Shown: piece after piece, positions 30,402-50,950 of the stretch
Layout of the letters: every line of letters begins with the position of its first letter
Numbering within the stretch: the stretch's first letter is position 1
From: Alloascoidea hylecoeti
Taxonomy: Eukaryota
Assembly: GCA_001600815.1 (NCBI GenBank)
Contig: BCKZ01000015.1
Location: 372,001-436,000 of the forward strand
Length of the DNA: 64,000 nt
Direction: 5' to 3'
Notes under the pieces: model-generated
The model's database searches: none
Seen by the model: only the letters and a program-made list of their open reading frames with translations
What the model was told of the DNA's origin: nothing
Position numbers and translations under genes: made by a program

Positions 30402-32456
30402 TTATTGTTCAAACACTCGTAAAGGCTCTTCTTTTTTCAATCCATGTCGTTTATTCAGATGTCTGCTTAGTTTCCTAGTACTTCCTGTTTTATCTTTTAA
30501 CATCAAAGCTCCACAAATCTCAGGTCCTCCATTCTTCAACACTTTACAATACACTTTAGTATTATCCGTTGTTAAATCATCAAAATACCTCCAAACCCAT
30601 GAATATCGATTAGGATGTGACTGAGGAGCTGTATATACTTTAGAATTCACAATAGTTGGGACTTGTGCTGGTGATCTTTGTTGTTGTTGTGCTGGTGGTG
30701 GTGTAGCTAACGTTTGCGCTCTTGAAGTTGTTGGTGTTGGTAAAGGCACCGCTAATTGATTTGATGCTTGTAATTGTTGATGTTGTTGAGTCATTTGTGC
30801 ATGCTGTTGTTGTCTTAGAATATCTTGCTGCTGTTGTGGAGCAGGATCAAATCGATATGTACGAAACAAGTTAGCATCATCATTAGAAAGATGTTGTTGA
30901 CGAGGTTGAACATGTTGTTGTCGTTGTTGTTGTGATGGACTGCTATTATTACTTGGAGGATTATTCATACCAACAGTTGAAGAAGTATTTAATAATCTTG
31001 CAATATTTGGATTACTACCCTGTGATGAAAGAGATGGATAAGATATTGGAAAACCAGCTCCTAAAACATCAGCGCTTAAATTCTGTGCAAACATATTTGA
31101 AGAATCAATATGATCAGAATAAGAAATTTGATTTAATAAATCATTTGTAATAGCTGAGTTTGATCTTCCATGAAGATGAGTTGGAGTCAAATCTGATTGA
31201 TTTTGATTTTGATTTTGGTTTTGGTTCTGATTTTGGTTTTGATTTTGGTTTTGATTTTGGTTTTGATTTTGATTTTGATTTTGATTTGGGGGATGTGTTT
31301 GTGTTTGATTCTGGTTTTGACCATGAGATGGTGATTGTTGTTGAGATTGTTGAAGTAACGGAGTTGCTAAAATATGATCAGCTTGTTCAGAACCATAAAT
31401 CTTATGAACATTATTTAAATGTCTTATAAAATTTTTAGTAGATTTAGAATGATCGTAACTCATTGAACAACCACAAACTTCTTTATCATTAGAAGCAGAT
31501 GTAGCAATACATCTAACTCTATCTTCACTTGTTTTTTGAAAATAATTCCAAACCCATGATCTTTTTCTTGCCTTTTTAACAGAAGTTTTAGGATCTTTTT
31601 CTTTTCGTTTTCTCTTCCCATTTTCACTAAGATCAATACCAGTTTCATCAATAATATTAATACTATCATTGTTTACTTGATTAGAATTTACATTTCTACT
31701 TCCACTCCCACTTGCCGTATCATTTTGATTTTGATTTTGATTGTCAGGTAAAATTAAATCAGGATCTGAATCATTAATGTTTGTAGATGGAGGTTTCGAG
31801 TACCCGATGAACTTTCGGGTCTTGGGTCTGACACCAAAGTTGACCTCACTGTTCATGTACCGCGTCGGGACCGTCGCATCCCGCGCAAATGTTTTGCCGC
31901 ACGCCCGGCACCGGATAAGGCTGGGATCCCTTGCATACTCCTCAAACACCACCCAAATCCAACTCGAGTGCCCAACTTCGCTGGCTCGGAACCGGTGCAT
32001 GTGTTCTAAATGCCCACTCAGCTTCAGCAAGGCTCCTTCTCCAGTGGGTACATTGCCAAACTTTCGGTTGTCCGCCACAATGGCGTTGCAGATCACCTTG
32101 AACGGGTCATCAGGATCGGCAACAAAGTAGTTCCAAACCCAGGACCGACGAGGCCCAGTACCAGTACCAGTGCCACTTGGTGTATCGTTGATGTTGATTA
32201 CTCTGGTCGAGTCGTCTCTGTTCGAGTCCTCCTGTCCATCCTCCTGCTTCGGACCGGCTGGTTTGATGCCGTGTTTGGTGGCCAAATGACGGATGAGGTT
32301 CTTGGTAGAACGGGACTTATCCCGACGCAAGACCCGCCCACAAGGCCCTGCATGCCCATGGGTTGGTGGGTAGTCGGGCATGTGTAGCGAGTGCGGGTGC
32401 GGATGCGAGTGCGGGTGCATCAACTCCTGCGGGTCGGTCATGTTGAGGTTTTCCAT
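30402..32456 (-). CDS. Multi-BED zinc-finger protein (5 BED-like modules, Q/N-rich linkers), no transposase domain; possibly the last exon of the upstream SET gene
   Basis: Repeated S-W-[VI]-W-x-[YV]-F...C...C...ST(K/R)x(L/F)xRHL...H modules. Modules 4 and 5 are complete; modules 1-3 are partial. Basic NLS-like KRKRKEK; (QN)n tract. Confidence 0.85.
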   Translation of the reverse strand: MENLNMTDPQELMHPHSHPHPHSLHMPDYPPTHGHAGPCGRVLRRDKSRSTKNLIRHLATKHGIKPAGPKQEDGQEDSNRDDSTRVININDTPSGTGTGTGPRRSWVWNYFVADPDDPFKVICNAIVADNRKFGNVPTGEGALLKLSGHLEHMHRFRASEVGHSSWIWVVFEEYARDPSLIRCRACGKTFARDATVPTRYMNSEVNFGVRPKTRKFIGYSKPPSTNINDSDPDLILPDNQNQNQNDTASGSGSRNVNSNQVNNDSINIIDETGIDLSENGKRKRKEKDPKTSVKKARKRSWVWNYFQKTSEDRVRCIATSASNDKEVCGCSMSYDHSKSTKNFIRHLNNVHKIYGSEQADHILATPLLQQSQQQSPSHGQNQNQTQTHPPNQNQNQNQNQNQNQNQNQNQNQNQNQNQNQSDLTPTHLHGRSNSAITNDLLNQISYSDHIDSSNMFAQNLSADVLGAGFPISYPSLSSQGSNPNIARLLNTSSTVGMNNPPSNNSSPSQQQRQQHVQPRQQHLSNDDANLFRTYRFDPAPQQQQDILRQQQHAQMTQQHQQLQASNQLAVPLPTPTTSRAQTLATPPPAQQQQRSPAQVPTIVNSKVYTAPQSHPNRYSWVWRYFDDLTTDNTKVYCKVLKNGGPEICGALMLKDKTGSTRKLSRHLNKRHGLKKEEPLRVFEQ
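31195..31285. repeat. Hexamer microsatellite (TTTTGA/TTTTGG)n encoding a poly-(Gln-Asn) tract
   Basis: Read directly; encodes NQNQNQ... in the BED protein. Confidence 0.9.
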
Positions 32457-32561
32457 CTCTGTTTGAGTGCTCTTAAAAGGGGGGAAGGTGCAAGTTGAAA
32501 ACCCGCATTGTTGCTACTCCACAGTTACCCGGAGACGCACGGCGCCCATCGGGTATCTCCG

Positions 32562-35500
32562 TCAGGTGACACTGACTGTCCGGGGCCCTTTCTTAACCTC
32601 CTCACTGGAATCACTAAACTCTTCTTCTTCTTCTTCTTCATCCTCTTCATCTTGCTCGTCAATAGAATTAGAAGCAACCGATGAATATGGAGGTGGAGGT
32701 GACTGTGGCGTTCTATTAGGATCTTGAATCTTGATTTCCGTTTGAACAAATGTGCAAGTAGTACTAGTCGTCGTAGTAGTCCTTGATGCTGATGATCCTG
32801 CCATCGGCAATTTTCCACTCTGATTTTGTTGTTGACTATTCGTCTTGGCTTTCTCAGCTTGTCTTTCGGCTTCCATACTTGCATTAATTTCAGCTGCAAC
32901 ATTTTGTAATTGTGGTAAAGTTGGTAGCTTTTGAACACCAGAACTCAAACTTAAACTTGTTAATTGTTCATTCATATTATCATTATCATGATCATCATCG
33001 TTAACATCATTCTGATTATTAGAATCTTCTGCTTGTTCTTCATGGTCAGAACTTTTATCAGTGCGTCTTTTCTTAGAACTTCTTTTCCCCTTATCCTTTT
33101 CCTTAATTCTATTTCTTCTTCGTTTTCTTCTTTTATCCTTTTCTTTTTCCTTTTCTCTTTTATTCTTATTGACACTAGCTTCTTTCAACCTCATAACTGT
33201 TTTACTAGTTCTTTGTGCTTCGGCTGCTGGATCAATAATATTACTCGTTTGTAATGGCATATATAAAAATTGCGCTTGAATTTGATATTCATGATGATGA
33301 TGTGTATGGCTATGATCATCGTGTGAATGTAACGCTATATCATGATTTGTTCTTGAATGAGAATTAACTATATTTGAATCATGACTAAATGAACGAGAAT
33401 CTTGAACTGGTTGTGGTAATTGATATTGTTGTTCTAATTGATAATGTATACGTGTTTTATTTTTATTACAAATTGATGTTTTTCTTGAATCAATTGTATT
33501 TGGTCTTGTAATACATGTTCTAGGTGCAATAGTAACATTACGTCTAGTCATATTATTACTTTGATTTGGGGTCAATTTTGGTTGAATATTAACTGGACGA
33601 TTTAATTGCATCGGTTTAGTCACACTACAATTGGAACATAAAATGGCGTTCTGTTGCTCCTGTTGTTCCCGTTGAAGTTGCTCCTGCTGCTGTTGTTGCT
33701 GTTGTTGCTGGTGTTGCCGCTCCTCTTCTTGTCGTCTTTGCAATTTTCTCTGTTCTTCTTGTTTCTCTTCCAATTCCATCATTTTTTTCCTTTTTTCTTT
33801 ATACTCTTGAATCTTTAATAATTGAATTCTGACATGTTCAGGGACATCTGGTGGTATATGGTCAACAACTTCGGATCCTTGAATATTAGTTCTTGGTCGA
33901 AGAGGTGGAGATCTAGGTTTTCTCTCATTAGGTAATATCGGTGTCTTATTAACTAAACTTGATGATGGTTTATTGATTATAATTGGAGATGATGTTTTAT
34001 TCATTGGAATTTTTCTATTCATATCTTGAACAGGATCAAATTTGGTGCTTCTATAGCTACATAATTGTGATTGTAATTCAGTATTTGCTTCTGATGTTAG
34101 CACTTGAGGTGGTGGAGAGTGGGATGTTATAGCGATTGACGCAGGAGGTTGTGAATATTGTATTTGTAGTTGTGGTTGTATACTCAACTGAGGTTGTGAT
34201 GGTTGCCAACCCGATCGTAATTGTTGTTCCACTGGTAGTTGTGATTGCATATGAGGAGGCATGCATTGTGAAGCATTTTGAGAACTCATGGATCCTGAAC
34301 CTCCCAATATATTACTACTATTCGGTATAGTATTTTGAAAAATATATTGTTGCTGCTCCTGTGTTGATGATGATGGCACAACTATATTTTGTTGTTGCGG
34401 TGTTTGCGGTTGTTGCTGTTGATGATGCGAAAATGCAGGAATAGGTCTATATTCTTCTCCAATCCTAGTATCAAATGCAACACCCGAACCCGGTATTGAA
34501 ATGGGAGCACTACCAGCAGGTTTTGCTGTAGCTGATGCATTTTCATTAACGGTCCTTGGTGACGCAGATGATGAATTGGATAATTTTTTTTCACCTTTTA
34601 ATTGTGTAACTGTAACTGGGACATAATGAGTTGGTTGAGTTTTTTGATAAGAAAATAAAACATTTCTTTTTTGTTTACTTCTTGCGGGAATAACATTATG
34701 ATGTTCAACAGGGATTTGTGGTCTCAATGGCATCATATTATTGGGTGATATTGTACCTGGGATAAATGAAACAATTCCTGATGTTGTACACGAAACTGAT
34801 TGTCCACTAACTGTTGACATTATTTTTGGTTCTTCAACAGGTGCTAAGGTTAAAGTTGTTGTTGGAGGTTGTAAGGATAATGGAATAATTGATTCATTAA
34901 CGGTTGCCGAAGATACTAAAGGGTCAGATTTTGACTGATACGATTCCGGAAAAACATCAGTCGATACCTCATAAACAACTTCTGTTGCTTTTGATCTTGA
35001 CCTTCTTTTTCTTGCTTCATTACTACTACTCATACCAGTTCTTCCTGCCAATATAGACGGTAGAACCGGCTGTTGTGGTTGTGAAGGATCAACTCCAATA
35101 ATATCTGCTCTAACTTGACTTGTTTCAGGCTGTGTACGAACACTAGTTTGTTTTTGTATATGACTACTTGCACTAGCAAGAGATTGAATAGCCGAAGGTG
35201 ATAAAGAATAACCGACATTAAAACTTGCTGATTGTTCCCTGGTTAATACCTGATCTTGATAATACATATGCCCATAATCTTTTTCCCTAATTTCTTCAAG
35301 TGTGGATAAAGGTCCTGGAGAATATCCAAACTTTGAACTTGATGAAGGTTTGGGTAAAACAAGAACGGGTTGTGGTGCTGTTGGAATTTCCTTTCTGTAA
35401 TCAGCTATTGATGGTTGATTCTCGCTTTCATGATTTTGATTATTCGTTGGTAATATAATTGGGGTTGATTCTTTTGATTCATAATTAAGTAATTGGGAAA

Positions 35501-36142
35501 TGGGCATAAGATTTGGTTGTGACTTTGATCTTGCATTCGAAGGTTTAGTCGGTAATGAAGGTGAAACCATATTGTGTGAAAATGCTCCTATCTCAAATGG
35601 GTGATTTTCCTCTTCTGTACTCTGAATTTTTGGAATTGGATCTTGTGTTTTTTCAGGTCTGTTCTCTTGAATAATCTTTGAGGTACCTTCAACCTGTAAT
35701 TTCTTGTTTTCAATATTCTCCTCTAACTCATTTTCTGTTTCTTTTTGTACTTCTGCTTGGATGATTTTTATAGGATATGATTCTCTGTGATCACTCATTG
35801 AAATGTCGAAATTAGAATCATCATAATCATCATCAACAACATCATCATAAAATACAACATCTATTCCCAAATTCTCTTCAATCTCAACATTTGTTTCATT
35901 ATCTTCTTCATTTGAACCATCGTCAATCACATTGTTAACACCAACTTGCTTGATTATTTGTAAATTGTTATTTTGTTCATCAGAACTGATAGCTTCATCA
36001 ACTCGAATAATTTTCCCATTATTATCCTCATTGGTACTTGTGGTTGTGGGTGTCGTATCATTTATAACTATATCATTACCATCATCATCAAAATCATTAT
36101 CAACTCCATCTAACAAATCATCAAAATTATGGATTATATCAC

Positions 36143-36195
<53 letters not shown>

Positions 36196-39100
36196 GGTAA
36201 ATTTAAGTCACTGATATTTGATGGATCAATTTCGACCAACTGAATCGATAAATCGGAAATTGAATCTGAATCAATGGTATCATCTTCTTCATCAAATCCA
36301 TCGTCACTATAAAAATCTATTGCACCATCATCCATATTTATGTTTGATTTATTATCAATTGATGTTAATGTTTCAATTGAATCCGGTGTAACTAAAGTCT
36401 TTTCACGTTGATATCCATGATCATTGTGATTTTCTCCTTCATTGATTGTAGCTTTTGGTACATATTTCGATAGCAGGGTATTGGCATCTTTCTCGAATTT
36501 AGATATCTTTCTTGATGAGGGAATTTCATCATTATCACTCAATTTATTATTACTATTTTCGTTCTTTTCTCCATTTGATTTATCACTATTTATCATTGGA
36601 GAAGTTGAATTAGAAGAAGTTATGATCACTTTTGTTGATGGTATATCATGATCATCAAGATCTTCTACCATGTTAGCTATTATTTCAGTACTGTCCATTC
36701 TATTAGGCTCAGCTACTTGTGATAATAACTCTTTGATTTTATTTTTTTTTCCAACTTCTTTTTCATTTTCAAATTCAATATCATAATCATAGTCATTAGA
36801 TATAATATTCTCTGGGATCGTTTGTGATTTAATAAATTTTTCTACGCTATATGAAAATGAAACAATAAGAGATTTATGATTATTGTTATTCTTATTTGAA
36901 ATTAATTTTGGATTTGACAAATCATTTGAAGTTTTTGAAGCACCGTTAACATTTTCTAATTCTTGAACAACCTCAGCATCTGCCTGTTTTGCTTTATTTG
37001 ATCTACTTGTTGATCTTTTATTATTTGTTGGTTCGGAATACATATCAATTTCCAATTTTCGTAATGCGGGTGGTAATAACTTCTTTAATTCATCAGCTTC
37101 TTTAATATCATTACCATGATTTGATATTAAAAAGCTTTCTTTTGATATTGATTGTTGCCGATATGAATCATGAGCATCTATTAGTAGAGAACTTGAATGG
37201 GAACATTTATTATTCATTGTTGTTGTGGCTTGTGTTGGTAAAATAGGTAACGTTCTACGACGTTCTTTTAAAGCAGCCTTTTGAGCTCTTGCTTTTGCCA
37301 AATTTGCCAATATATGTTGTTTTGTAAGCGCCTTAGATTTCTTTAGTGGCCTATAATCCATAATTGTGTGCCTCCTCCTTTTATACGATTCGTGATCTGT
37401 TAAAGTACTGAAGTTACTTCGGTGATTATTTTGAGATAAATGAACACGACTTTGGCTATAGGTATTATGATGGGTAATATTAAAGGTATTGCGTGAATGA
37501 CTATTAGAAGAGTGAGAATTATGTTTACTGTCAATTTCTTTTGTAACTAATATTTGATTATCATTTTTTGTATGACTATTGTTATGACTATTATGATTGT
37601 GTTTTAAATCAGCAGAATTTTCTTTCGAAGATTTTTTACCAATAAATCCTCTGCAATTAAATGATCCACATAAACAAGCCTGTGGCTCTGCTCCTTCAAA
37701 CCAATCAAAATTGTAATCATATGTTATTTCAGTACCTTCTTTAATACCTTTCGGACCAGCGAATAACCCAATTCTTGGCTCACCATTGACGTACCATTTT
37801 TGCATTTCTGCATTTGGATTACATGAATGATTAACGAATCTTGCGACTGAGCCTCTTGTTCCACTATCAATGACACAATTCTTTTCAAGACTTAGCATAT
37901 AAAAGTTCTAATAATATTAATTGCAATTAGATTTAAATATAATTTATGATTTTTTCGTAATATTATCTTACCTTAGCACCTTGATATTTGTTTTGTACCC
38001 TTGATTCCATTTCATCTCGAGTGATTACATCTCCAGTATACTCAACGATTATTTGAGCAGGATCATAGGATCGAATTGCTCTTAAACCGTAACCCCGATT
38101 TCCAGTCTATAATCTGTGTTAGCTAATCAAAATGTCAAAAATTTAAAAAAGACATACATCAAATACTTCAAATCCATTAGCATATCGTTTCCTGGCAGCT
38201 AATTCCTTCTGTAATGTTTCAAAAGGCCTATTACCACAATTCTTTTTGCCCAATGGACAAGTCAATTCATCGCATTCATATTGCATCATTCTACAAAATG
38301 AAATGTTAACAGTTATAAGAATATTATAATTATTATAGAATGAAGATTAATAAATCATTCATATTGTTAACGTACCTATTAAGACAGTCTTCTCCACATT
38401 CATCTTTACAATTGCATGAAGGAAGTTCTTTTATTTTTGCAAAATGAGCTGTTTGATAAATATCTAATAGAAAGAAAATAGTGTTAAGGGTTTATGTTAG
38501 GTAAGGATATTAATCAGTTAGCACAATATTGGGATCTTAAAGATTGGGAAAAAGAAAGGAAATCTGTTCATGCTTAAGAAGAAATTATATTCAACTTGTA
38601 ACTTACTTTTTTTTAATGATCTCCATTTTAAAATCTTTCTTTCTCCATTACTCGGACAATAGATATTCCATGGCAATTGAAAATCCTTTTTATCTTTCAA
38701 GGAAGATTGATCATGTGGTAAAGAAAATTTAAATTTTTCAGGAATTTGTTTCTTAAGTCCACCACTATAAAGGCCAGCCATAAGGAATAATTTACGCCTT
38801 TTTGGTTGATAATTATGATTTCGACCTTGATAATTTTGACTTTGACTTTGACTTTGACTTTCATTAGTAGTGATGCTATATACATTTTTAGGTATAGGGT
38901 TTTTTTGAATTTGGTTTGGATTTGAGTTTATTGAACCTAACGTTAGACCTCTTTTCTTATAGTACTGTGACCAATCAAATACTTGAGATACCGATTCCAC
39001 AGCATCCTGAATGTATTTTTCGCCTCCTTTATCAGGAATGGCAGAGTTATGAAAAAAATCATGAAGAGTGCTTGCACAGTGACGGGTTGTGTATTTTCTT

Positions 39101-39198
39101 AAGGCCCAAGGTTTACCAATCGGCTCAGGGACAGGAGTTGAGCCAGGTAAATTCCAGTCAGGGCTCTTTTCTGCGACAAACTTTTTATGGGAACCCAT
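32562..39198 (-). CDS. ASH1L-type histone H3K36 methyltransferase (AWS-SET-postSET) with a very long low-complexity C-terminal tail; 5 exons, ~2,097 aa
   Basis: Exons 39198-38607, 38463-38376, 38290-38158, 38106-37972, 37907-32562, joined in frame by GT..AG introns. Motifs: AGLYSG..F.LP..DFQLPWNIYCP..W....N (fungal ASH1-like pre-AWS), C.C...CGEDCLNR..YEC...CGN, RGYGLRA, EYTGDVI, ARFVNHSCNPN, EITYDYNF, CLCGSFNCRG. Further upstream exons cannot be excluded. Confidence 0.88.
36143..36195. repeat. (TTA)n microsatellite encoding poly-Asn in the SET protein tail
   Basis: Read directly. Confidence 0.95.
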
Positions 39199-42100
39199 TG
39201 TCTTGACCGTGAAAAAACGTTTGTAGGAAAGAAGTGGCAAAGGTGAAGGTCTATCAGTGTATCAAGCAGAAAAGGGAAGTGAAGAAGAAAAAGGTGTTGA
39301 ATGGTTTTGTGATTGCAATTAATTAATACTGCAATTGAGACCAAAATAAAATGCTTGATTAAAATTCCTAGAAGTATGCATGATTTATGCACAATGTTCT
39401 GCTTGCATATCCTCCTGCAAGATGTAACTAATTGCTCAATTAAATTTGATGCATGCACACACTGCATACATGTGTCCACAACTAAATGAAGTACCAGGAA
39501 TTCACTAGCTGCTTTCCGATTGGTTCCTTCTCAGATCCCAATTATAATATCTTCATCATATATACCAAATTTTTATAATATTATTATCCTTATGTTTAAT
39601 ATTTCTGGGTTTAGTTATGCCGATCCTCTAATTATAATCTCTGATAATCAATTGCAATATAATAATACCTTCCGTCTCATTTGCGAACCCAATATTACCC
39701 CAAATGATCATAAGGAAATTAGCAAACGGTATAAAAATTTATTCACGATCACTGAAAAATATTACAGCTAGTTTCTTCGAACGCTATTTTGACTTCTATT
39801 ATTTTTCTACAATTATACAAATCTCAACTTCCTATACCCAACTAGCTAAGAACCTGCCAGTAATGATGGGTTGATCCGTTGAAATTGTAACTTATTCACA
39901 GAAATACATATGGACACAGCAGTATGGCTATAGTTAAGATAATAACCACTACCACATGCATGAAACAACGCAAACAATCAGCGTTTGTTATCTGTTGTAT
40001 GAGAACTCCTAACCAATATCAGGGTTAGGAAATAATTATTCAACTACAAATTTGTTATAATTAGATGATTGTTTTGTACAATGATTTCTGATATTCCCAG
40101 TCTTTTATATCTCTCATTAATATTGTACAGTTCTCAATTGCAATATCTTATATATCTCCCAAAAGAAAGATCTGCAGATATAGTAGAGTAATTGAGTGAC
40201 ATAAGGTCTTGTTAAACTCTCTGTTGAACGTTTATGATAATATGACAGTAATGTTATAGACTAGTTTTGGAGATATTCAGAAGGTGAGGCCTACTCCGTG
40301 GCCATCTTACTCGCCAACATTATTACATAATATCAACAGAAAATATGATAGCTTTATTATTGAAGTATGAAGATCTTTTCTTTTAAGTTTTAATATATTC
40401 TAGATCAATTCCAGAAGCGTAAAAAAGGCTGATGAATGACCCAAAATAGAAGATTTGCACTATTCCCAATGCATCTTCATGTGAACTGTACATCTGCATG
40501 TTTTGGAGTTTCATTTCAGCTGGCATGTCAATGATAACAGCTACTACCAGTATACCAATAAATCAACCTCATGTCATACCATTAAAGGTACTAAACCTCT
40601 TCAATAATAGTAGGAATGTGTATTAAACCTCGGCAACTAAACAGGTAGTACTGCCAGTATATATGAGCTAGCTATAGTATAAATCCAAGTCTAAAACTAT
40701 TTGTTTAGTTGGTAATTAAGCCTGCTATGTATTCAAAGGAATATACTTCCTGATCGCACTTTTTCCCATTAAGAAGTACCGAATTATTTTTATTTTTATT
40801 TTTATTTTTTGTGTGTCAGATTTTACTATTCTAGGGAGAAGAAGAATAACTAATTATGAGGTTTATAAAACTTGAAGATGGTTTCATTTATGTGATGAAC
40901 CACGTGTATTCAATTATAGGGGCTGTTCTTGTGAAGAGTCGGTGCTCATATGTTGAGCGGGACAATTTCTAAGAACTGTACTGATCAAGCTGTGTTGGTA
41001 AATGGCAGTTGCGACAATGAAGTCTCCGCAATATTCACTATCTTGCGTTGTTGGTGTAGTTCAGGGGAGTTAAGTAGAACATGCTGGATATTTTGGATTG
41101 CTCCATAATTGCATCATGTGGATTCTTCTCCAAAGTATCTCTTGTTATGGCATTTCCAATTCGACACCGGAGCCTCTTCAGTGTTTCATACAAATATCAC
41201 CACTGAAATTCCATGGACAGGTATCACCTGATCAGTATCATTTTGTCTGTTTACCGTCGCCCTCAATCACAAATTAATTTTAGATAGTCTTAAAATGTCA
41301 TGACTCGATCTAATCACTGAAACTATAGTCTATAGATTATAGTAATTTCATTTTTTTGAGCCGTTTCAGCTCCAATTATAGATTTATTCAATATGGTACT
41401 GTTCATGAGCGTTGAGACAATGTCACATGCAGTATATTATCATATTATATACAGAAATTGCAACAATTCATTAGATTTGAATAGTTCAAATCTACAGTAC
41501 TATTATTATCTGCTAAATCACCATAAATTTATATTTTACTTCATAGATTTAGTTAATTATATATTATCGAGTACTAATACTGATGTTATAATTAATATAT
41601 AGATATCGATTATTGTTTTATATACCTAGGCTTAATACACGAATACAATTTTAAGCTGGCCAAAATATAGCTAAATAGTTTTTCTTGTATATATACCTAT
41701 ATATTGATAGTAGACATTATTAATCTTATAGCTATTTATTATGCTAAACTTGACTATGCTGGTGCAGACAAAAAAATAGATTTTAATGGGAAACATATAC
41801 TGGCACCATAATAGGTGATATAAACTTAACCCGTATACATATATTCAGTTTTAAAAACAAGTATAATAATAACAGTATATGATCGACTATAAGTTAGTAC
41901 AATACTACATATATATAGTATTTATATATCTAACACTATATAAGCCCTGTATATCTTGTTGAGCTTTTTTTATGTGATCGGACTAATTAATTTACAGATG
42001 TGAAAAAAATTTAAGGGATTATATATATCTTCAGATGACAAATTTGAATATTTAATAATGTATAACTAGCGAGCGCTGGCTGTAGTAATAAAATTGAACC

Positions 42101-42382
42101 ATAATTAAAATAATAAATGATAGCTATATCACTTTAACCTATTAAAAAATCACAAACTATAAGGTCATGAACAGCTTTTCCACAACCAATTAAATACACT
42201 ATGCAATTACTCAGGTTACTTTACTTATAAATTTTAATATTATGTAGCTAGTTTTTACCTTACATTTACTATATATTGCTATTACTAGCTATGTTTTGTT
42301 TTTCTTATTATAATTATAAATTAGTCATATGAATTTTGTATTATAGTTATGTGAAGCAGACTATGGATGATATATCGATTCT

Positions 42383-42960
42383 CTAAATTATAATAGAGTA
42401 CATTCCTTCAACTTTGATGTTGCAATTGTAGTTTTCTTTTATCGTTTCATTCATAGCAATCTCTAAGTTATCATCCAATCGTTCTAGCTCGATGTTTTTG
42501 TTGGGATCAAAGGGCCCATCGATATAAACAATCTGATTTTCTTTTATATCAACTTTTGGTATAATTGCAAGAATCAAGATTATTTTCACCATCCAGTATC
42601 TTCAAATATATCAAATTCATTTTCCGTATGACATCTAAACAATCATCATGAATAGTTTATAGCACCTTGGGTTTATAAACTAAAACCTAAGTATGTTTCC
42701 ACCTTTTCTCTGCTTACCAACTTTTCTTTCCCACTGGGAATTCTATTAACTTTAGAAGGAATAATAGTTGTCTTGTTATAAATATTCCGCAATCTAATTT
42801 CTCATAGGTATATTTCGAACTGTAATTCAATATTGTGACATGTTTCAATACTGATTTTTAATACACTTCCTTCTAGGATCGATCTCACTAAATCCATCAC
42901 GGTACAATTCTCTTTTTCCACGATACCATTGGACATATAAGTATCTGTTGCATTAAAAAA
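42383..42960 (-). mobile_element. Decayed Ty1/copia-type retrotransposon integrase fragment
   Basis: SNGIVEKENCTVMDLVRSILEGS (cf. copia NG.AER.NRT.....RS.L) at ~42865-42933, followed by KEKLVSREKVETYLGFS (cf. KL..R.....FLGYS). Interrupted by stops and frameshifts. Confidence 0.7.
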
Positions 42961-45900
42961 TTGGTTTATTGGTTTATACCTTTATCATACCAGCAATCTT
43001 TCGGTGGTATCTTCAGATCTATTATCAGAACATAAATATTAGAGTCAATATTTTCATTGATAAAGGAAACATATGCGAGTGTAAATAGCTGAGCTTAACG
43101 AACCTGGAATGGTAACTCAGAGGAAAGGAGTTATAGTCGGTTGAAGGGTCTGACAATTGCAATCTTGGTATTTCTTTTGCATACTATTTCTTATAAGCTT
43201 TCTTTTGAATAAAAGAAATTTTATTCATTACTGAAATCAGAACTAATACTTACCTAATTTATTATTGCAACTGAAGGCGTATTGTTCATAATAGTCTATA
43301 CTTTTACTACACCATCATCAACAATTAATGAACTTAATATTACTTATAATTTTAATTGCAGACCATACTGTGATTAGTTTATATGAAGTTAAGGTTAATA
43401 CCATCTAATTTCAATTATTTCCAAAATTCAGCAGCTGCTTGAATGTCATCAGCGTTTAAAATATCGATACTACAATCCTTTAATTGCTAGCAAATATTAC
43501 TTCGCTTGCGCATTTTAGTTAGTTTATCTACAGGAATCCCCCAATATCTAGCTTTTATAACTTTATAATTAAAATTATTCCTGTTCACGCATTTGACATT
43601 ACTTTCTTATAATTAGTTAGAATTTAAATTCTTCTTTTCCTTCATCAAATTTGATTCTAAAAATTTTTATTAAAATTGAGCTTGAAAAATATCTGACTTA
43701 CCGGTCAATATTTCTATCGAAGCATCAAAAGTTAATCCCAAATGCCTGCACTTTTAATCATGTTCAACCATGCATCACCTGTCTCCATATAATTTATGTC
43801 CCTTCTGCAATATTGATCTTTTTGTACTATGCATTATGTATCCTATATAAGAAATAAGAATGCATAGATCCCAATTGATTAATCAAAACATCTCATTTTT
43901 CCTGATTTTATATCAACATTAATTAAAGGGTATAGTATATCGTTTGGATCATTTCCAAAAATTCTAATATGATCTTTTATATTTTCTGATAGGGTCACTG
44001 TTATTTTTGAAATATTACTTGTTGGGTATCATATATACGGGCACACTTGAGCAGTTCACAAGAGTCAATTGTCTTTCGATGACCTTAATTATACACGTAG
44101 ATACAAGTATACCGTATGTTATGATATCACAGTTATACCTCATAATATTTAATGCAACTCAATAAATTTAAAGCTATTTTATAATACCATATGAAAGATG
44201 TATATCCCCGAATTCACCCAAAAGAGGCATTATGATAATCAATAAATTAAAGCAGTATCACTATATTATATAGACAAACTTGTAGTAGGGAAGAAAAGAA
44301 AGGTCTATGTCTCCTCTATCTGATTATGTCATTTACTATTAATTAGTATGAATAACCATCGCTCAATTTTCCGTACCACTAGTACTTTTCAATAGTCCAT
44401 TAAACTCCTTCTAGAAGTTCAAGCTATATTGTTAAAGTAGAAAATTGTACTTACGCTCTTAAAAGATGTTCTAGTGTATTTTCAAAGTCGATTGGTCTTT
44501 TATTCTCCTCTTCCCCGTAGTTTTGTTGGTATCACTAAGAAAAACATAAAACATATTAAGATAATATATCTTAATAAAGTTCTAAGTGCCTGTAATAAAG
44601 TTCTACCATAATAAAGATCTAAATGCCTGTTTCTCCCAGTTACGCCAAAAATCCAATCGACTTTCTTTTTGTGAACTGTTCTAAGAGTGATACCAAAATC
44701 TCTTGATTAAAGTGCTAATTATCAAGCAAATTTTGCTAAATATAATGTAAATCATGTTCCCTAAAGTGTCAGAGTATCACTATAGCTGAGGAAAATTCTG
44801 CATATTTTTGTCGGGTCACTTTTGAGCTTGTCCCAGGCAGTTTTTAATGGGAATTAGGTCTGGGCCAACATAATTGTTTCATTTAATTTTCCTCCTAGTT
44901 TTTTTGATTCGGGATTGGAGAATTGTCCTGTTGAAAATATCATCTTCAAAAGCTTGAATAAAAAGTATTGCCAGCCGTTATAATGTTTTTTTGATATGCA
45001 CCCTTCCCTGAAACTTCTCAGTAACATACGAATGTTGGCGTGTTCTTCGTCAGACCTTTTTGTAATCTTCATATCGCACCCCTAAGATCTCGTGAAGGTA
45101 ACTTTGACCTGTTTTGTATATATACTATAGCTAAAGTTTCAATGGATTTGTAATGAAGCCTGATGCCTCTCACAGTACACAAGAGGCCTCACTACAGAAC
45201 CAGCACAGGTATGACCGGATCCGACCAAATAGACGAGATATGACTTTTGCACTGTAGTCAGTCGAGTCATTCATATTTCGAATGCTCCAATATGATTAAG
45301 GTTTCAAAGAGATATCTTCTCAAATAAAGTTAAGAGTGAAACCAAAAAAGCTTAAAATTTCTATAGATGTCAATCTATTAATATATTACCGTTTTCATTA
45401 TTATAGTAAAAAAAAACTGGCTATAGCCACACTTAGTGTTGCGCCTTTGGGGTTTTCTAATGACATCTAAAACTCTAAACATTACATTAGTTATAACATT
45501 GTTTTTAATCTATGTTTAAGACAATCTGCAGCTTCAATGCACTATTGAAACCTTCTTCCAGATCAGGACTCATAATATATCGAAACTTAAAATCTTGACC
45601 CATAGTTATGTATTTATGCATTTTTGAAATTTTTGCAGTCCATGATTATGGTTAATGAACAGGAACTGCTATTCTTGAATTATTTTCAATTTAAATTCAA
45701 CATGTAATATGTCAAATCAGATTTCATTAATATAAATGCTATTATTCCAAATTTCAACACCACTTATATCCCTTTAATAATTATTTCTGCAAATTGGCAT
45801 TTTGTCTTGAATTTCTATTTGTTCTGAATAATAGGTATCACCAGTAATGGAAGCTACAGAGCGCAATTATAAATAGGGTTTAATCTTTGAATTATTATGG

Positions 45901-48890
45901 TCACTAAATATATGTTTTACTTGCAATTGTCATTATATCTAATGTATATTTTATAGTTTATTATAACGGGTGTTCAAAGAATTCAGGTTCACGTTAACCA
46001 ATCTGATGAATGTGGCTATAGGTAAATAATAAAACCAACTTCTAGGATTTGTCCCTTGAGTTTTTTTTCTAAGGATGCATCCCAAATATTAGTCAAATAC
46101 ACTGGTGTTAGTGTACAAGACAGCGAGATACTTAATTATAAGCCTTTATGATAAAAGCTTGAAGTTTTAACCATTCCATATACTACGATTTTGTTATATT
46201 CAAAATGATGTTAAGCATCCGTACCAATTGTTTTCCTGAGCTTGTTTGTTCCAAAGCATAAGTATACCGAAGCTGAATAGATCCTTAGCAATTATGTATG
46301 TTCATATACCGCTTTAATTTCAATTTATTAGTGTTGCTATACATTATAGTGATCGTATAATATAAAGTTTATAATTATTGGATAGATATAAATATATATG
46401 TGGGAGAAATAAATGAATCTGTACAATGCACCAAAATCTTCGATGCACCGCGACTAGATCAAGCAAATATTCATATGCCGGTCATACATTTAGGAATTAA
46501 CATTATTTCTCACCATCAAGATCGGAAGTACTTTAGAAAGAAAGAAGGTACCTTTGTAGAAACGCTGAATTAGCCATATCATTTTTGGGTGCTCCGAAAC
46601 TAAATTGACCAGAGAATGATATTCAAATAATCACTTGCACTGAATTCGGAAAAGTTATTTCTCACTACCTATTCGAGATCACACACCAAATTTTTTTTTT
46701 TTTTGGGTAAAGGTTTGAATGATCAGATATCTAAAGTATCCGTACAAAAATTAATAACGAAATCACTATATCGAATAATTTAGCAGTTCACTCTCTGAAT
46801 CTAAGTTTTAGTAGTTGATACTTATCATGAACTGGTCAATCTCGCACATAAATTTCTTTCCATAGAGCACAGGAACTTTTTTATTTTCTATATAGTTATT
46901 CTAGAGAGGAAATAGCTTTATTGAATGTAATTAATATTGCATCGGCTTTTTCGAAGCTTGGTTCAGTTTATTTAGTAAGTTTAAAGCACTATATCAACTC
47001 CATACCTAGCTATACAGATCGAGAACCTTTCATAGTTACAAATATCTGAAGAAGAAGGTAAGTCCAAATAATTTTCAAGGATATCTCTCTATCTCTAGAA
47101 GGACTGCCATTTCATGCCAGGTGTTCATTTGCCTTCATTCGAGCAAATGTAAGCTTATAGAGCCCCTTAGATATATGAGGGCAGTTAACCAACATCATAG
47201 CCACCTATATATTGTGATTACAGAAAATGGTACTCAGCAAACAAAAGAAACTATGCTAACCCTTCTTTGTAATTGAAAGCATTGTAGGAAGTCAATCAGA
47301 AAAGTTATAAATAATTGTGTGTAACGTGTCTCATTTCCCTTAGCTACCCATCATTATACCTGCATATCCATATATCCCAAAAATTCCGTATTAAATGGCT
47401 TATATGAATGAATTTCTCTCAGCTGAGTACATATATTTGAAGTCCGATTAAAATTATGGTGTTACATGTAAATACTTTATTTCATGCCCCTTTATTAGTC
47501 ATGCACTCCTCGAGATACTCCGAATACATATGAAATATGTGTGTGAATCAAATCACAACAATTATATTCTCAATTATTGATAAACAGTCAATTAAAACAC
47601 ACTATTACATTGATTATAATTTAGTTAGAGGATAAATTTTTATCTTGAGTTTCCTTTTTGAATGAAATATATTTTTACATGTCATTTATTCATACCTGTC
47701 TCAAAAGTAGAAAACATAACAAAAACATAACTTTTTTTCTTTTAGAGCATGAAAGAAGTGGGATTTATTAACTAATTAATATTCTATGCAATTAATGTAG
47801 CTGAATCAATTTTGGATAGTTTTTCACCCATTCTTCCCAACTAATACTAACCGACATTGATATTGATACCTATGACGAAATCATCGACACAATTCCGAGC
47901 TTATTAACCTACAGGTAATATACAATATATAAGCCTATAACCCTCATAATACCCTACGTCACTATGTAAAATCACTTTACGTATTTGTTAAAGAACACAA
48001 AAGGTAGATAGTTGGAAAATATAAATCCTATCGTTTCAAATTATTCGACCCTATTTCTTAATTATGCAGGCCTCCAAAATTCGCAGCCATACAGATATGC
48101 TACGTTTGATGAATTTAATCAGTTTTCTCGTTCAATGATCACGTGTTATGTATATGTCCTCATGGCGTAATATGTATTGTTGCATCAACTTGCATGCATA
48201 TTCCTGGAGACCAAATTCTTACAAAAAAAAGTTAGTTTTCAGTGTGTACCATAGTTAAATTTTGGATGTCTTCTCTTCGGTATCTAAAAGCGGCTATAGA
48301 GGTATATAAATATTACATATAGAAAATAAATGTTTCCTGAATTTTCCTTTAGATTTAATTTGCGAGCCTTGTAGATGTAGCTATATATAAATAAACTTCA
48401 TTAATTCCATATCTTGAAGTCCGGACCTCCGCCGCTTCTATATTCTTTTATATTCAACTGAAAATTTCATACATTATTTTTATTCGAAGATTAAACAAGA
48501 GCGTCTAATACGTATTCAACTTATAGATGATGCTCGTAGAACTAGCATATATATAACACTTTATAAGCTTATATATATCGTATCAGTTTAAGCTACGAAT
48601 ACCTATGCCTATATGATTTGCATAATTAAAATATGGTAATATCCAGTTACTTAGATAGCTAGTATACACGTATACGTATTAAGATAGTAGTATCACAATC
48701 CGTGATAAGTAATATACACTCCAGAGGTTATGATGGCTTATATGTTCCAAAGAATTCATACTGGTTTTTGCAGTTCTTAGACTAGAGCTTTTTTCTGTAT
48801 GTATCAGTTGGTAATTACAAATCAAATGAAACGCTTATTTTCTGAGGCTAACTATAGCTTCATCTCCTAGTGGTCTCTTGAGCTACTATA

Positions 48891-49157
48891 TAAGATTGAC
48901 AAATTCAATATATCAATACATAATTATATGATATCGCGTTAATATTATTTAAGTAATAAATCTGCACTATTCATTTCCTATTTCCTCTTTAAAGTAACTT
49001 CCGTTTTGGGAATATTATGCAGAAAATGTAAAAAAGATATTATAAATGAAATATGCCATATAAAAGTATCTACTCCTTATCTATTTTATGTTTAAATACG
49101 CGATAGCATTTGAATATAATTTCAGGTATCAATCAGTTAATTTCTATTTAATCTTTT
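48891..49157 (+). repeat. Dispersed repeat copy A (~270 bp), possibly a solo LTR or non-autonomous element
   Basis: Reverse complement matches 59599-59839 (AAAGATTAAATAGAAATTAACT, CTATCGCGT, CATAAAATAGATAAGGA, AAAACGGAAGTTACTTTAAA, TTGTCAATCTTA). Confidence 0.85.
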
Positions 49158-49899
49158 CAATTATTAATAACCTTTATATTATTAGCAATATGAACTTTAA
49201 TTTCAAATTTCAAATTTCAAACGATATATTTAACTTTTTGCTATAACACATGATTTGGAAGCGGTATAACTCTACTTTTATATCAAACATATTACGATAT
49301 CTACCAAATTTAACCTTTTTATTATCATTTACCGGTTTAAAGGGCTTACGCTTAGTATATATTTTTTCGATAATACCTAATTTGGTTCTGATCTGAAACT
49401 TCCACTATATAACTTCTATTGTGACTTATAATTCAGAAAAGTATTTATATTCCAAATTTCTTTACCTTTTTAATTTGGATCAAACACTCTAAAATACTTC
49501 TTCAGTAATTTCTCAACAACTTTCAGAATTACTATTTCTATTACAATGGCTCCATACTTTTAAATGATGAACAAACATCGGAATTAACCGTGTCTTGGGT
49601 TGAACACACAGGAAAACAGTAGTTAATTGGAAGTAACATTGATTACGGCGTTACGGCTTAGACTTATATCCTTTATATATATATATATATATGCACGCTT
49701 AAATAAGAACTACTTAATATAGACTACTCTTACATGTAATGTTATGTTTAATTATGGAGAACAACCTCCTTCAATTCATGGTGCGAAGATCTTTGAAATC
49801 GGCAGCAATACAATTAATAATATAGAATTAATAGATAATTACATGTATTGTGAACCACTGAGATACATTAGTTTCACTTAATGTAGGGCATTCTGATTA

Positions 49900-50950
49900 C
49901 TAATTATCGGCCATCCCCATAACTATGTTTAGGGCTGGTTGCAATGAGTCCATCAAAATACGACTTATCTATCTCCTTCCATAACCCTGGTAAAATTTCT
50001 GATAGGTGTTACTTGACGTTCTTAACTTCTCCTTTCACGATAGCAATATTTTGCCCTTTTTACCTAGCTCAGGTTTAAGCTTATGCTAAGCATGATGGGG
50101 TTGAGGTCTGACTACCATATCTGCTTAAGATTATATACCGCCAAGATATTCGAAAATTTTTCAGCTGTATGGACGGCAGAATTGTCTTGTTGAAAATAGC
50201 ACCTTCAATGGAATTCAAGGTATTGCTTCCAGTATTAAGACTTCATTAATATATCTTTCGGAATTTATTTTACCTTCTTCAAAACGGACGAGCCTTGATC
50301 GTGCTTCACCGCAGAATCCTCCCCAGGCCATGTTTTTAACATCACCACTCTTGAATTGAGGTAATAAATACCGGGGGTTGCCTTTATTATCATTCTGATC
50401 TTGGTAACAATATCTATCTGCTGCTGAACCACGTTTCGAAATCGACGACACACCCGAGAAAATCACGCGTTTCCAGTCGCTTACAGTAAAATTTTGATAT
50501 TGGTGAAGGTGACAACCAAGACTTTTTTCTCATTTTTCTTCATTTAAAATTCATCTCTAAATATCTTCTAACTGTCATAGTGCTCACCTGAAATCGTTTC
50601 AAAGAGGCGTCCATTGTTGGAATTTTTAGTAGTTCCCTTCTGATACCCCTAAGGTCTCGAGGAGATAATACAGACTTCACTCCAGGTGGTTTGATATTCT
50701 CTACGGTATCCCTCTTTTTATAAAGAAGGCAGACGTGTCTCGGAGTATTACGATGAACACCAACTCTTTTGGCAGTTTCAGTATTGGAATTACCTGCGTC
50801 CAACAAATGAATTATGTGCAATTTTTATTAAGCCGAGCCATTTAAACTTTGAATGGTCAAAAAGGAGTAAGGTTTCGTTAAAATATACTCGAACAAAGTT
50901 TACAAATGTTTTAGGCATTTTGAAGCTGCACCCAAACTTCCGAGCACTAC
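49900..50950 (-). mobile_element. Degenerate Tc1/mariner (IS630-Tc1) DNA transposon
   Basis: HTH (S.TETAKRVGVHRNT), PG.KSVLSPRD.R.I.R, DWKRVIFSG, MAWGGF, KINSERYINEVL, FQQDNSAVHTA and DLNPI motifs in order, split by frameshifts and stops. Ends are approximate; no intact TIR pair seen. Confidence 0.88.

What the first reader, a model, noticed from the sequence alone, without database searches (positions are those of the whole stretch)
30402..39198. Possible ASH1L-type SET methyltransferase fused by a cryptic intron to a five-BED-finger DNA-binding module
Seen: the SET ORF stop (TGA 32564-32562) and the BED ORF are on the same strand and in the same frame, only 105 bp apart, separated by two stops. 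A 63-nt segment 32576-32514 begins GTCAGT and ends GGTAAC-TGTGGAG-TAG. Removing it deletes both stops and joins ...KKGPRT|QQCGFS...QTEMENL into a ~2,796-aa protein. The same unusual GTCAGT donor is required to splice RNH1 in this window (52171), and 63 nt matches the local intron size. Established: BED fingers are DNA-binding domains of hAT transposases and their domesticated derivatives. To my knowledge fungal ASH1 H3K36 methyltransferases do not normally carry BED fingers. Inference: a sequence-targeted histone methyltransferase, or alternative splicing producing forms with and without the BED module. Caveat: the branch point is non-consensus, and the junction is GC-rich like the MET16/RHO1 junction, so it could be a compact promoter instead.
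Basis: partly seen in the sequence, partly recalled or inferred. Interest (0 to 1): 0.85.

Follow-up and report, generated by a model that had tools for sequence, protein, structure and literature searches.

The report
SET and BED genes, fusion unproven
A histone-methyltransferase gene and a zinc-finger gene lie 105 bases apart on the same strand, and the DNA between them looks more like a small promoter than a spliced-out intron, so a fused protein is possible but unproven.

Summary
The sequence observation is correct. On the minus strand a five-exon AWS-SET-postSET gene ends at TGA 32564-32562. A BED-finger ORF follows in the same frame, with its first ATG at 32456. A 63-nt GTCAGT...GGTAAC...TAG segment (32576-32514) would join them into 2,796 aa.

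No transcript or comparative evidence for the splice could be obtained. No RNA run holds this organism.

The 105-nt junction carries promoter marks:
- A perfect Reb1-type TTACCCGG sits 69 nt upstream of the BED ATG. It contains the proposed branch point. The only two other copies in the window also lie upstream of start codons.
- A C/T-rich box lies 18 nt upstream of the ATG.
- The ATG position matches the start of the relative's ORF call.

In favour of splicing, the segment matches local introns in length, donor and TAG acceptor. The SET stop is also the only one of 22 without an AT-rich 3' flank.

Odds:
- Two tandem genes with a compact promoter: about 0.55.
- A fused isoform exists: about 0.27.

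Only three of the five BED units pass Pfam's threshold.

The parts
38607..39198 (-). SET gene exon 1 (ATG 39198-39196), 197 aa with no Pfam family
38464..38606 (-). SET intron 1 (143 nt, GTAAGT...CTAAC...TAG)
   Evidence: the frame stays open after removal
38376..38463 (-). SET exon 2 (start of the Cys-rich AWS region)
38291..38375 (-). SET intron 2 (85 nt, GTACGT...TTAAC...TAG)
38158..38290 (-). SET exon 3: AWS domain (25.2 bits, cut-off 23.3)
38107..38157 (-). SET intron 3 (51 nt, GTATGT...CTAAC...TAG)
37972..38106 (-). SET exon 4: SET profile positions 1-36
37908..37971 (-). SET intron 4 (64 nt, GTAAGA...TAG)
   Evidence: Exon 5 continues the SET profile at position 38
32562..37907 (-). SET exon 5: rest of SET, post-SET and a tail of about 1,650 aa of low complexity, then stop TGA 32564-32562. 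The tail has no AT-hook
32514..32576 (-). Candidate 63-nt in-frame intron (GTCAGT...GGTAAC...TAG, GC 0.62). It holds both in-frame stops. Splicing is untested
32525..32532 (+). Perfect Reb1-type site TTACCCGG (CCGGGTAA on the minus strand), 69 nt upstream of the BED ATG. It overlaps the proposed branch point
   Evidence: Motif taken from PMC5052057
32475..32494 (-). C/T-rich box CTTGCACCTTCCCCCCTTTT (18 of 20 pyrimidines), 18 nt upstream of the BED ATG
30402..32456 (-). BED-finger ORF from the first ATG (684 aa) to TAA 30404-30402. It has five BED-like units, of which three pass Pfam
31791..32620 (.). GC-rich island (GC 0.56 against 0.32 for the window). It covers the last 19 or so SET codons, the junction and BED units 1-3

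Best explanation
These are two tandem genes.

The upstream gene encodes a 2,097-aa AWS-SET-postSET lysine methyltransferase of the H3K36 clade (ASH1/NSD/SETD2). It has a long, fast-evolving, disordered tail.

The downstream gene encodes a 684-aa protein with several BED zinc fingers and no transposase domain. It is presumably a sequence-specific DNA-binding factor. Only one relative was detected, so it appears restricted to a narrow lineage.

The 105 nt between them work as a compact promoter for the BED gene. It has a Reb1-type factor site (TTACCCGG) about 70 nt upstream of the ATG, then a C/T-rich box, then the ATG. By analogy with budding yeast, the same bound factor may also stop polymerases arriving from the SET gene.

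On this reading the 63-nt intron-like segment is a coincidence. Part of it is produced by the factor site, which supplies the 'TAAC'.

Shown: the domains, the motifs and their positions, and the separate ORF in the relative. Inferred: factor binding, the transcription start, SET transcript termination, and the absence of splicing.
For: 1. TTACCCGG occurs three times in the window. Shuffles gave a mean of 0.51, and 2 of 100 reached three. The other two copies lie 197 nt upstream of the GHMP-kinase ATG and 61 nt upstream of the ATG of a small three-exon gene. The third lies 69 nt upstream of the BED ATG.

2. Taking TTACCCGG and CACGTG together, 7 of 12 sites lie 53-197 nt upstream of one of 20 listed start codons. 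Such stretches make up about 6% of the window. They include SDH4 (73 nt), SFXN (58 nt) and MET16 (81 and 61 nt).

3. A 20-nt box with 18 pyrimidines and 10 C ends 18 nt before the BED ATG. Only 0.8% of random 100-nt windows reach 18 pyrimidines with at least 8 C. Boxes of at least 17 of 20 with at least 6 C precede 5 of 19 start codons, against 4.7% of random windows. Two of those 19 windows were offset by 1-2 nt.

4. The only close relative has a stand-alone 505-aa ORF (E 1.7e-128). Its first Met lies 42 residues before the first conserved Cys, against 38 here. Conservation begins only at ...GH(A/S)GPCGRVL.

5. BED is 55% identical over its whole length. The SET tail cannot be aligned beyond post-SET. 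The two parts therefore evolve under different constraints.

6. No SET-BED protein was found. None of the 57 hits is longer than 1,357 aa, and one search found none.

7. Short tandem spacers are normal here. The BED stop to the SDH4 ATG is 151 nt, and MET16 to RHO1 is 234 nt.

8. The candidate intron has GC 0.62. Eighteen local introns that I trust have GC 0.14-0.33.
Against: 1. The 100 nt after the SET stop are the only 3' flank of 22 genes without an AT-rich patch. GC is 0.55, the lowest 30-nt GC is 0.43, and there is no poly(A)-signal-like motif. The others have GC 0.15-0.43 and lowest 30-nt GC 0.03-0.33. MET16, in the other GC island, keeps such a patch. How the SET transcript ends is not explained.

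2. The 63-nt segment matches local introns. Length is 63 against 48-86 for 17 of 18 (one is 143). The donor GTCAGT is also used in RNH1. The TAAC lies 11 nt before a TAG acceptor.

3. Ten elements in the window meet stringent signals and bridge two ORFs of at least 40 codons. Eight lie at homology-supported splice positions, one is a decoy inside the Bot1p domain, and the tenth is this one.

4. There is no TATA-like element in the junction. An upstream ATG at 32507 means a BED transcript would have to start within about 48 nt of its ATG.

5. The Reb1 motif comes from Saccharomyces cerevisiae. Nothing shows that this organism has such a factor.

6. The relative's separate ORFs are mere ORF calls. 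They do not exclude an intron there.
Confidence: 0.55

Rival explanations
1. There is one gene, or one long isoform. Transcripts from the SET promoter run through the junction, and the 63-nt intron 32576-32514 is spliced out. This removes both stops and gives a 2,796-aa SET-BED protein, a sequence-targeted H3K36 methyltransferase. Intron retention would give SET alone. The internal promoter could still give BED alone.
For: - The frame stays open after removal, giving 2,796 aa.
- Donor, length, distance from TAAC to the acceptor, and the TAG acceptor all match local introns.
- Eight of the nine other elements that meet the same criteria are at homology-supported splice positions.
- The SET stop is the only one of 22 without an AT-rich 3' flank.
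- SET and BED ORFs appear to share one 15,803-nt contig in the relative, judged from equal contig lengths.
- The window's SET tail has no AT-hook, while the two relatives have 4 and 6. A different DNA-binding module would make sense.
Against: - The junction bears promoter marks that a coding or intronic linker does not need. The 'branch point' is part of the TTACCCGG site.
- GC is 0.62, against 0.14-0.33 in local introns, and there is no U-rich tract.
- The peptide between the acceptor and the ATG (QQCGFSTCTFPPFKSTQTE) is rich in Cys and Phe, unlike the tail.
- An AG lies 3 nt before the TAG. If it were used, the TAG stop would stay in frame.
- No fused protein exists in the databases.
Confidence: 0.27
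2. The two ORFs are co-transcribed without fusion. Either the BED transcript starts inside the 3' end of the SET coding region and the 63 nt are a 5'-UTR intron, or SET transcripts read through as a two-ORF RNA from which only SET is translated.
For: - No terminator-like sequence follows the SET stop.
- A candidate 5'-UTR intron that ends right at the ATG exists in RHO1 (57706-57820, GTACGT...TACTAAC...CAG, GC about 0.53). GC-rich introns in GC islands may therefore occur.
Against: - Upstream ATGs at 32534 and 32507 would precede the BED ATG in such transcripts.
- The C/T box and factor site lie where other genes of the window have them relative to the ATG. This fits a start downstream of them.
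- No RNA data exist.
Confidence: 0.12
3. It is an artefact or read-through. Either the two stops are assembly errors in one continuous ORF, or both stops are read through during translation.
For: - The two ORFs share a frame, with only two stops in 35 codons.
- TGA-C and TAG-CAA are contexts I recall as leaky.
Against: - Two independent errors, or two successive read-throughs of different stops, would be needed.
- The relative also has separate ORFs.
- The window holds no N.
Confidence: 0.03

Closest known systems
SETMAR (primate SET methyltransferase fused to a mariner transposase)
   Same: A SET gene is followed on the same strand by a transposase-derived DNA-binding module. In SETMAR the two are joined in one mRNA. 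It is described as such a fusion in 10.1101/2021.11.30.470311 (passages seen). The detail that an intron removes the old SET stop is recalled from Cordaux et al. 2006, which I did not read here.
   Different: No transcript evidence exists here. The module is an array of BED fingers (hAT type) without any transposase core. The junction carries promoter marks. The SET domain is of the ASH1/NSD/SETD2 type.
Fungal ASH1 H3K36 methyltransferases (for example Neurospora ASH1)
   Same: The core is AWS-SET-postSET, without the SRI or WW domains of Set2. The best solved relative is ASH1L. ASH1 orthologues act independently of RNA polymerase II (PMC6251624, abstract seen in the listing).
   Different: NSD and SETD2 score almost as well (E 1e-27 to 1e-25 against 1.5e-28), so the subfamily is not settled. 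The tail of about 1,650 aa is not alignable to relatives and lacks their AT-hooks. No activity was tested.
Multi-BED zinc-finger proteins derived from hAT transposases (ZBED-like host genes)
   Same: There are several BED units and no transposase core. Unit 5 resembles the N-terminal BED of longer proteins, one of which has a hAT dimerisation domain (P0034). Capture of transposase domains by host genes is described in 10.1101/2020.05.07.082677 (abstract seen).
   Different: Only units 4 and 5 have all four zinc ligands (read). Units 1-3 are half or degenerate units, yet they are conserved in the relative. Only one relative was found.
Reb1-type general regulatory factor sites in compact yeast promoters, which also act as roadblock terminators
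   Same: The perfect consensus TTACCCGG lies between two tandem genes, about 70 nt upstream of the downstream start. In S. cerevisiae such sites stop incoming Pol II in either direction. The paper shows one with a downstream transcription start 80 bp away (PMC5052057, passages seen).
   Different: The organism is unknown and binding is untested. No Nrd1/Nab3-type motifs were seen by eye upstream of the site. That paper also reports many Reb1 sites that are read through.

Membership tests
SET-domain lysine methyltransferase, H3K36 clade (ASH1/NSD/SETD2) | SET domain (PF00856) | tested here: met
   Exon 5 matches profile positions 38-105 at E 1.4e-11. Exon 4 matches profile positions 1-36 (16.9 bits alone).
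SET-domain lysine methyltransferase, H3K36 clade (ASH1/NSD/SETD2) | AWS (pre-SET) and Cys-rich post-SET flanking the SET domain | tested here: met
   AWS scores 25.2 bits against a cut-off of 23.3 in exon 3. The post-SET region CLCGSFNCRG aligns with ASH1L, NSD and SETD2 chains to the ends of their constructs.
ASH1 subfamily specifically | Closer to ASH1 than to NSD or Set2/SETD2, and no SRI or WW domain | tested here: inconclusive
   ASH1L is the best hit (1.5e-28), but NSD1 (9e-28) and SETD2 (2e-25) are close, and only 96 aa were used. No SRI or WW domain was found by Pfam. No tree was built.
BED zinc finger (PF02892) | Match to the profile above the gathering score, with Cys2His2 ligands | tested here: met
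   The whole ORF scores 56.8 bits. Units 1, 4 and 5 pass on their own, and units 2 and 3 do not. Full ligand sets are present only in units 4 and 5.
hAT transposase | RNase-H-like catalytic core and C-terminal hAT dimerisation domain | tested here: not met
   Pfam finds only zf-BED in the 703-aa ORF and in the relative P0004.
Spliceosomal intron of this genome | 5' splice site, branch site, 3' splice site and length like local introns | tested here: met
   GTCAGT is also used in RNH1. TAAC lies 11 nt before TAG. Length is 63 nt. Base composition is atypical (GC 0.62).
Spliceosomal intron of this genome | Removal from RNA | not testable with these tools
   No RNA holder was listed. The three runs that were laid hold only low-complexity look-alikes.
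Host-transposase fusion gene (SETMAR-like) | One mRNA and one protein that hold both parts, or a continuous ORF in relatives | tested here: inconclusive
   No fused protein was found. The relative has separate ORFs.
Reb1-type promoter element | Consensus TTACCCGG placed upstream of start codons | tested here: met
   Three of three copies lie 61-197 nt upstream of an ATG.
Reb1-type promoter element | Bound by a Reb1 orthologue, nucleosome-free, transcription start downstream | not testable with these tools
   No genome is held for this window. No binding or start-site data are available.

The most novel reading that the evidence does not exclude
The locus is a fungal counterpart of SETMAR at an early stage. 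The BED gene keeps its own promoter. Polymerases from the SET gene meet no terminator and read through, and the 63-nt in-frame intron is spliced in part of these transcripts. The result is a 2,796-aa H3K36 methyltransferase tethered to DNA by BED fingers, alongside SET-only and BED-only forms. This would give an ASH1-type enzyme a sequence-specific targeting module, replacing the AT-hooks that the relatives' tails carry.
Probability: 0.25. Interest if true: 0.7.

Novelty: new member of a known kind. Interest (0 to 1): 0.3.

Why it matters
How ASH1-type H3K36 methyltransferases are aimed at particular chromatin is poorly understood. A natural fusion to a sequence-specific BED module would give a directly testable targeting mechanism and a fungal parallel to SETMAR.

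If the two are separate genes, as I think more likely, the locus is ordinary. It is still a useful caution: in compact yeast-like genomes an in-frame intron-like segment between tandem ORFs can overlap a promoter element. The lineage-restricted multi-BED protein, with three conserved but ligand-poor units, is itself an uncharacterised DNA-binding factor.

Tried and rejected
- RNA evidence: no RNA holder was listed for 31000-34500. Three metatranscriptome runs of one study were offered, each with a word share of 0.00. Laying them at 80% likeness gave only short pieces on low-complexity stretches (poly-Gln around 33650-33720, the GAA repeat). No piece was 99% alike, and no joint appeared at the junction.
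- Whole genome: none is held for this window.
- Earlier findings of this scan: nothing by place, by relatives or by sequence.
- DNA of relatives: the metagenome scan gave 9 loci with only distant BED matches of 31-36% identity. In the prokaryote genome collection 50 stretches matched a pattern but none encoded a relative. The relative's junction could therefore not be read.
- Fused proteins: none among proteins of 1,232-3,515 aa.
- ESM Atlas: only generic BED clusters, best score 0.86.
- Solved structures: no match for the BED ORF.
- RNA structure of the junction: z-score -0.13, nothing special.
- Rfam and tRNA scans of the window: nothing.
- AlphaFold of BED units 1-3 with a two-row alignment: mean pLDDT 36.7, unusable, so no fold search was made.
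- Similarity between the two GC islands: none.
- Literature: one paper holds 'BED zinc finger', 'SET domain' and 'fungi' together, and it is a general transposon review. A study of fungal SET proteins (PMC12581908) does not mention BED in its main text. These two searches are my only basis for saying that no fungal SET-BED fusion is in print.
- Stop-codon read-through and assembly error were considered and judged unlikely.

Full report
**What is there**

On the minus strand a five-exon gene starts at ATG 39198. Its introns are 38606-38464, 38375-38291, 38157-38107 and 37971-37908.

Exon 3 carries an AWS domain (25.2 bits). Exon 4 matches SET profile positions 1-36, and exon 5 matches positions 38-105. 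The intron positions are therefore supported by colinearity with the profile.

The last exon runs to TGA 32564-32562. Joined in a script, the exons give an open frame of 2,097 aa.

The 96 aa of SET and post-SET match ASH1L best among solved structures (E 1.5e-28). NSD1-3 and SETD2 are close behind. It is an H3K36-clade enzyme, and 'ASH1-type' is plausible but not settled.

The tail of about 1,650 aa is low-complexity sequence. Outside SET and post-SET it cannot be aligned with the nearest relative. It holds no AT-hook, whereas the two relatives' tails hold 4 and 6.

**The second ORF**

ORF 32513..30405 is in the same frame. Its first ATG is at 32456, which gives 684 aa.

Pfam finds zf-BED and nothing else. 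Taken one by one, units 1, 4 and 5 pass the cut-off. Unit 1 is only the C-terminal half of a finger. Units 2 and 3 are below threshold. 'Five BED fingers' is therefore generous.

An exhaustive profile-free search of 1.84 billion representatives found 57 hits at E <= 0.001 and one close relative. That relative is P0004: 505 aa, E 1.7e-128, 55% identical in a full alignment. No hit was longer than 1,357 aa.

One longer hit has a hAT dimerisation domain, which fits a transposase origin for the fingers. A search among longer proteins (1,232-3,515 aa) found nothing.

P0004 and the SET ORF P0061 both come from a single contig of 15,803 nt. From the equal contig lengths I infer that the two genes are neighbours in the relative as well.

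Both proteins look like plain ORF calls. P0061 begins just after the position of an intron in the window. They therefore say only that a stop or a frame change separates the two ORFs there too.

**The candidate intron**

Segment 32576-32514 is 63 nt, GTCAGT...GGTAAC(N7)TAG, and holds both in-frame stops. Its removal gives an open frame of 2,796 aa.

I trust eighteen introns of the window on sequence and homology grounds. They are 48-143 nt long, and 17 of 18 are 86 nt or shorter. All end in TAG and have GC 0.14-0.33. One of them, in RNH1, uses GTCAGT.

A stringent pattern has 59 hits on both strands. It requires ten donor hexamers, a length of 45-80 nt, T[AG]A[CT] 7-26 nt before a TAG, and the TAG itself.

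Ten of those hits also bridge two ORFs of at least 40 codons:
- Eight are at homology-supported splice positions.
- One is a decoy inside the Bot1p domain.
- One is the candidate.

The signals are therefore good, and the chance of such an in-frame element at one given junction is, by my estimate, of the order of 1%. The composition is wrong for a local intron (GC 0.62). The segment does lie in a GC-rich island.

A second point favours co-transcription. The 100 nt after the SET stop are the only 3' flank of 22 genes without an AT-rich patch or any poly(A)-signal-like motif. MET16, which ends inside the other GC island, keeps such a patch.

**The junction as a promoter**

The proposed branch point is part of CCGGGTAA, which reads TTACCCGG on the other strand (32525-32532). 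This is the consensus site of the yeast general regulatory factor Reb1. That factor marks promoters and can stop incoming Pol II as a roadblock, in either direction (PMC5052057, passages seen).

The 8-mer occurs three times in the window, against 0.51 expected. Two of 100 shuffles reach three. The other two copies lie 197 nt upstream of the GHMP-kinase ATG and 61 nt upstream of the ATG of a small three-exon gene. The third lies 69 nt upstream of the BED ATG.

CACGTG is also enriched, with 9 copies against 3.4 expected. It sits 53-81 nt upstream of the ATGs of SFXN, ACPS, SDH4 and MET16. In all, 7 of 12 such sites lie within 200 nt upstream of one of 20 listed start codons. That zone makes up about 6% of the window.

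Between the site and the BED ATG lies a C/T-rich box, with 18 of 20 pyrimidines and 10 C. Only 0.8% of random 100-nt windows reach that level. Similar boxes precede the ATGs of SDH4, SET, the MPN gene and the phosphoesterase gene. C/T-rich promoter motifs are documented in at least one other yeast (PMC10506223, passages seen).

The BED start thus has the same layout as the SDH4 start 2 kb downstream: a factor site at about 70 nt, then a C/T box, then the ATG.

The spacer from BED to SDH4 is only 151 nt, so 105 nt is short but not out of scale. In addition, the relative's ORF starts 42 residues before the first conserved Cys, against 38 here. Conservation begins only just before that Cys.

**Weighing**

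The promoter marks are hard to explain if the junction is only an intron plus a coding linker. The intron-like signals and the missing terminator are hard to explain if the two genes are fully independent.

A roadblock at the TTACCCGG site could account for the missing terminator, but that is analogy, not data.

I put two separate genes at 0.55. A fused isoform, most likely alongside a BED-only transcript, gets 0.27. Co-transcription without fusion gets 0.12, and artefact or read-through 0.03.

No RNA data could be brought to bear, and the relative's DNA could not be reached.

**The GC island**

The island 31791-32620 has GC 0.56. Third-position GC is 0.60-0.72 in BED codons 1-220. It falls to 0.10-0.14 in the rest of BED, and is 0.16-0.30 in the SET tail.

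A second island (57201-57850) covers the 3' half of MET16 and the spacer up to RHO1. The two islands share no sequence. I have no tested explanation for them. Biased gene conversion at a recombination hot spot is my guess.

**Novelty**

As two genes, the locus holds new members of known families. If the fusion is real, it would be a new variant of the host-transposase fusion kind, with SETMAR as the nearest case.

My two literature searches found no fungal SET-BED protein. Supplements were not examined.

Noticed in passing
window 31791-32620 and 57201-57850: Two sharp GC-rich islands (GC 0.51-0.59) lie in a window of GC 0.32. In the first, third-codon-position GC jumps from 0.10-0.14 to 0.60-0.72 within one ORF. 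Both islands span the end of one gene, a tandem spacer and, for the first, the start of the next gene. They share no sequence.
   Followed up: partly
window 57706-57820 (+): A candidate 5'-UTR intron of RHO1 (GTACGT...TACTAAC...CAG) ends exactly at the ATG 57821. It is GC-rich (about 0.53), unlike the other introns. Untested.
   Followed up: no
window 39800-50200: A stretch of about 10 kb has no ORF of 90 aa or more on either strand, no tRNA and no Rfam match. At its edge (50215-50824, minus strand) two ORF fragments carry a transposase-like helix-turn-helix (HTH_23, CENP-B_N). This looks like a decayed Tc1/mariner-type element.
   Followed up: partly
P0001 (window 37907-32565) against P0061 and P0062: The window's SET tail has no AT-hook (RGRP-type) motif. 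The tails of the two nearest SET relatives carry 4 and 6.
   Followed up: partly
window 56739-56764 (+): Two CACGTG sites lie 81 and 61 nt upstream of the MET16 ATG. This resembles the Cbf1-site layout of sulphur genes in budding yeast, which I recall rather than tested. CACGTG is enriched in the window (9 copies against 3.4 expected).
   Followed up: partly
window 56467-56093 (-): A small three-exon gene of 84 aa has two hydrophobic stretches and an 18-nt first exon. A TTACCCGG site lies 61 nt upstream of its ATG. It has not been identified.
   Followed up: partly
window 32517-32518 (-): An AG lies 3 nt upstream of the TAG acceptor of the candidate intron. If it were used, a 60-nt intron would be removed and the TAG would stay in frame, giving a SET protein that ends ...GPRT.
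   Followed up: no
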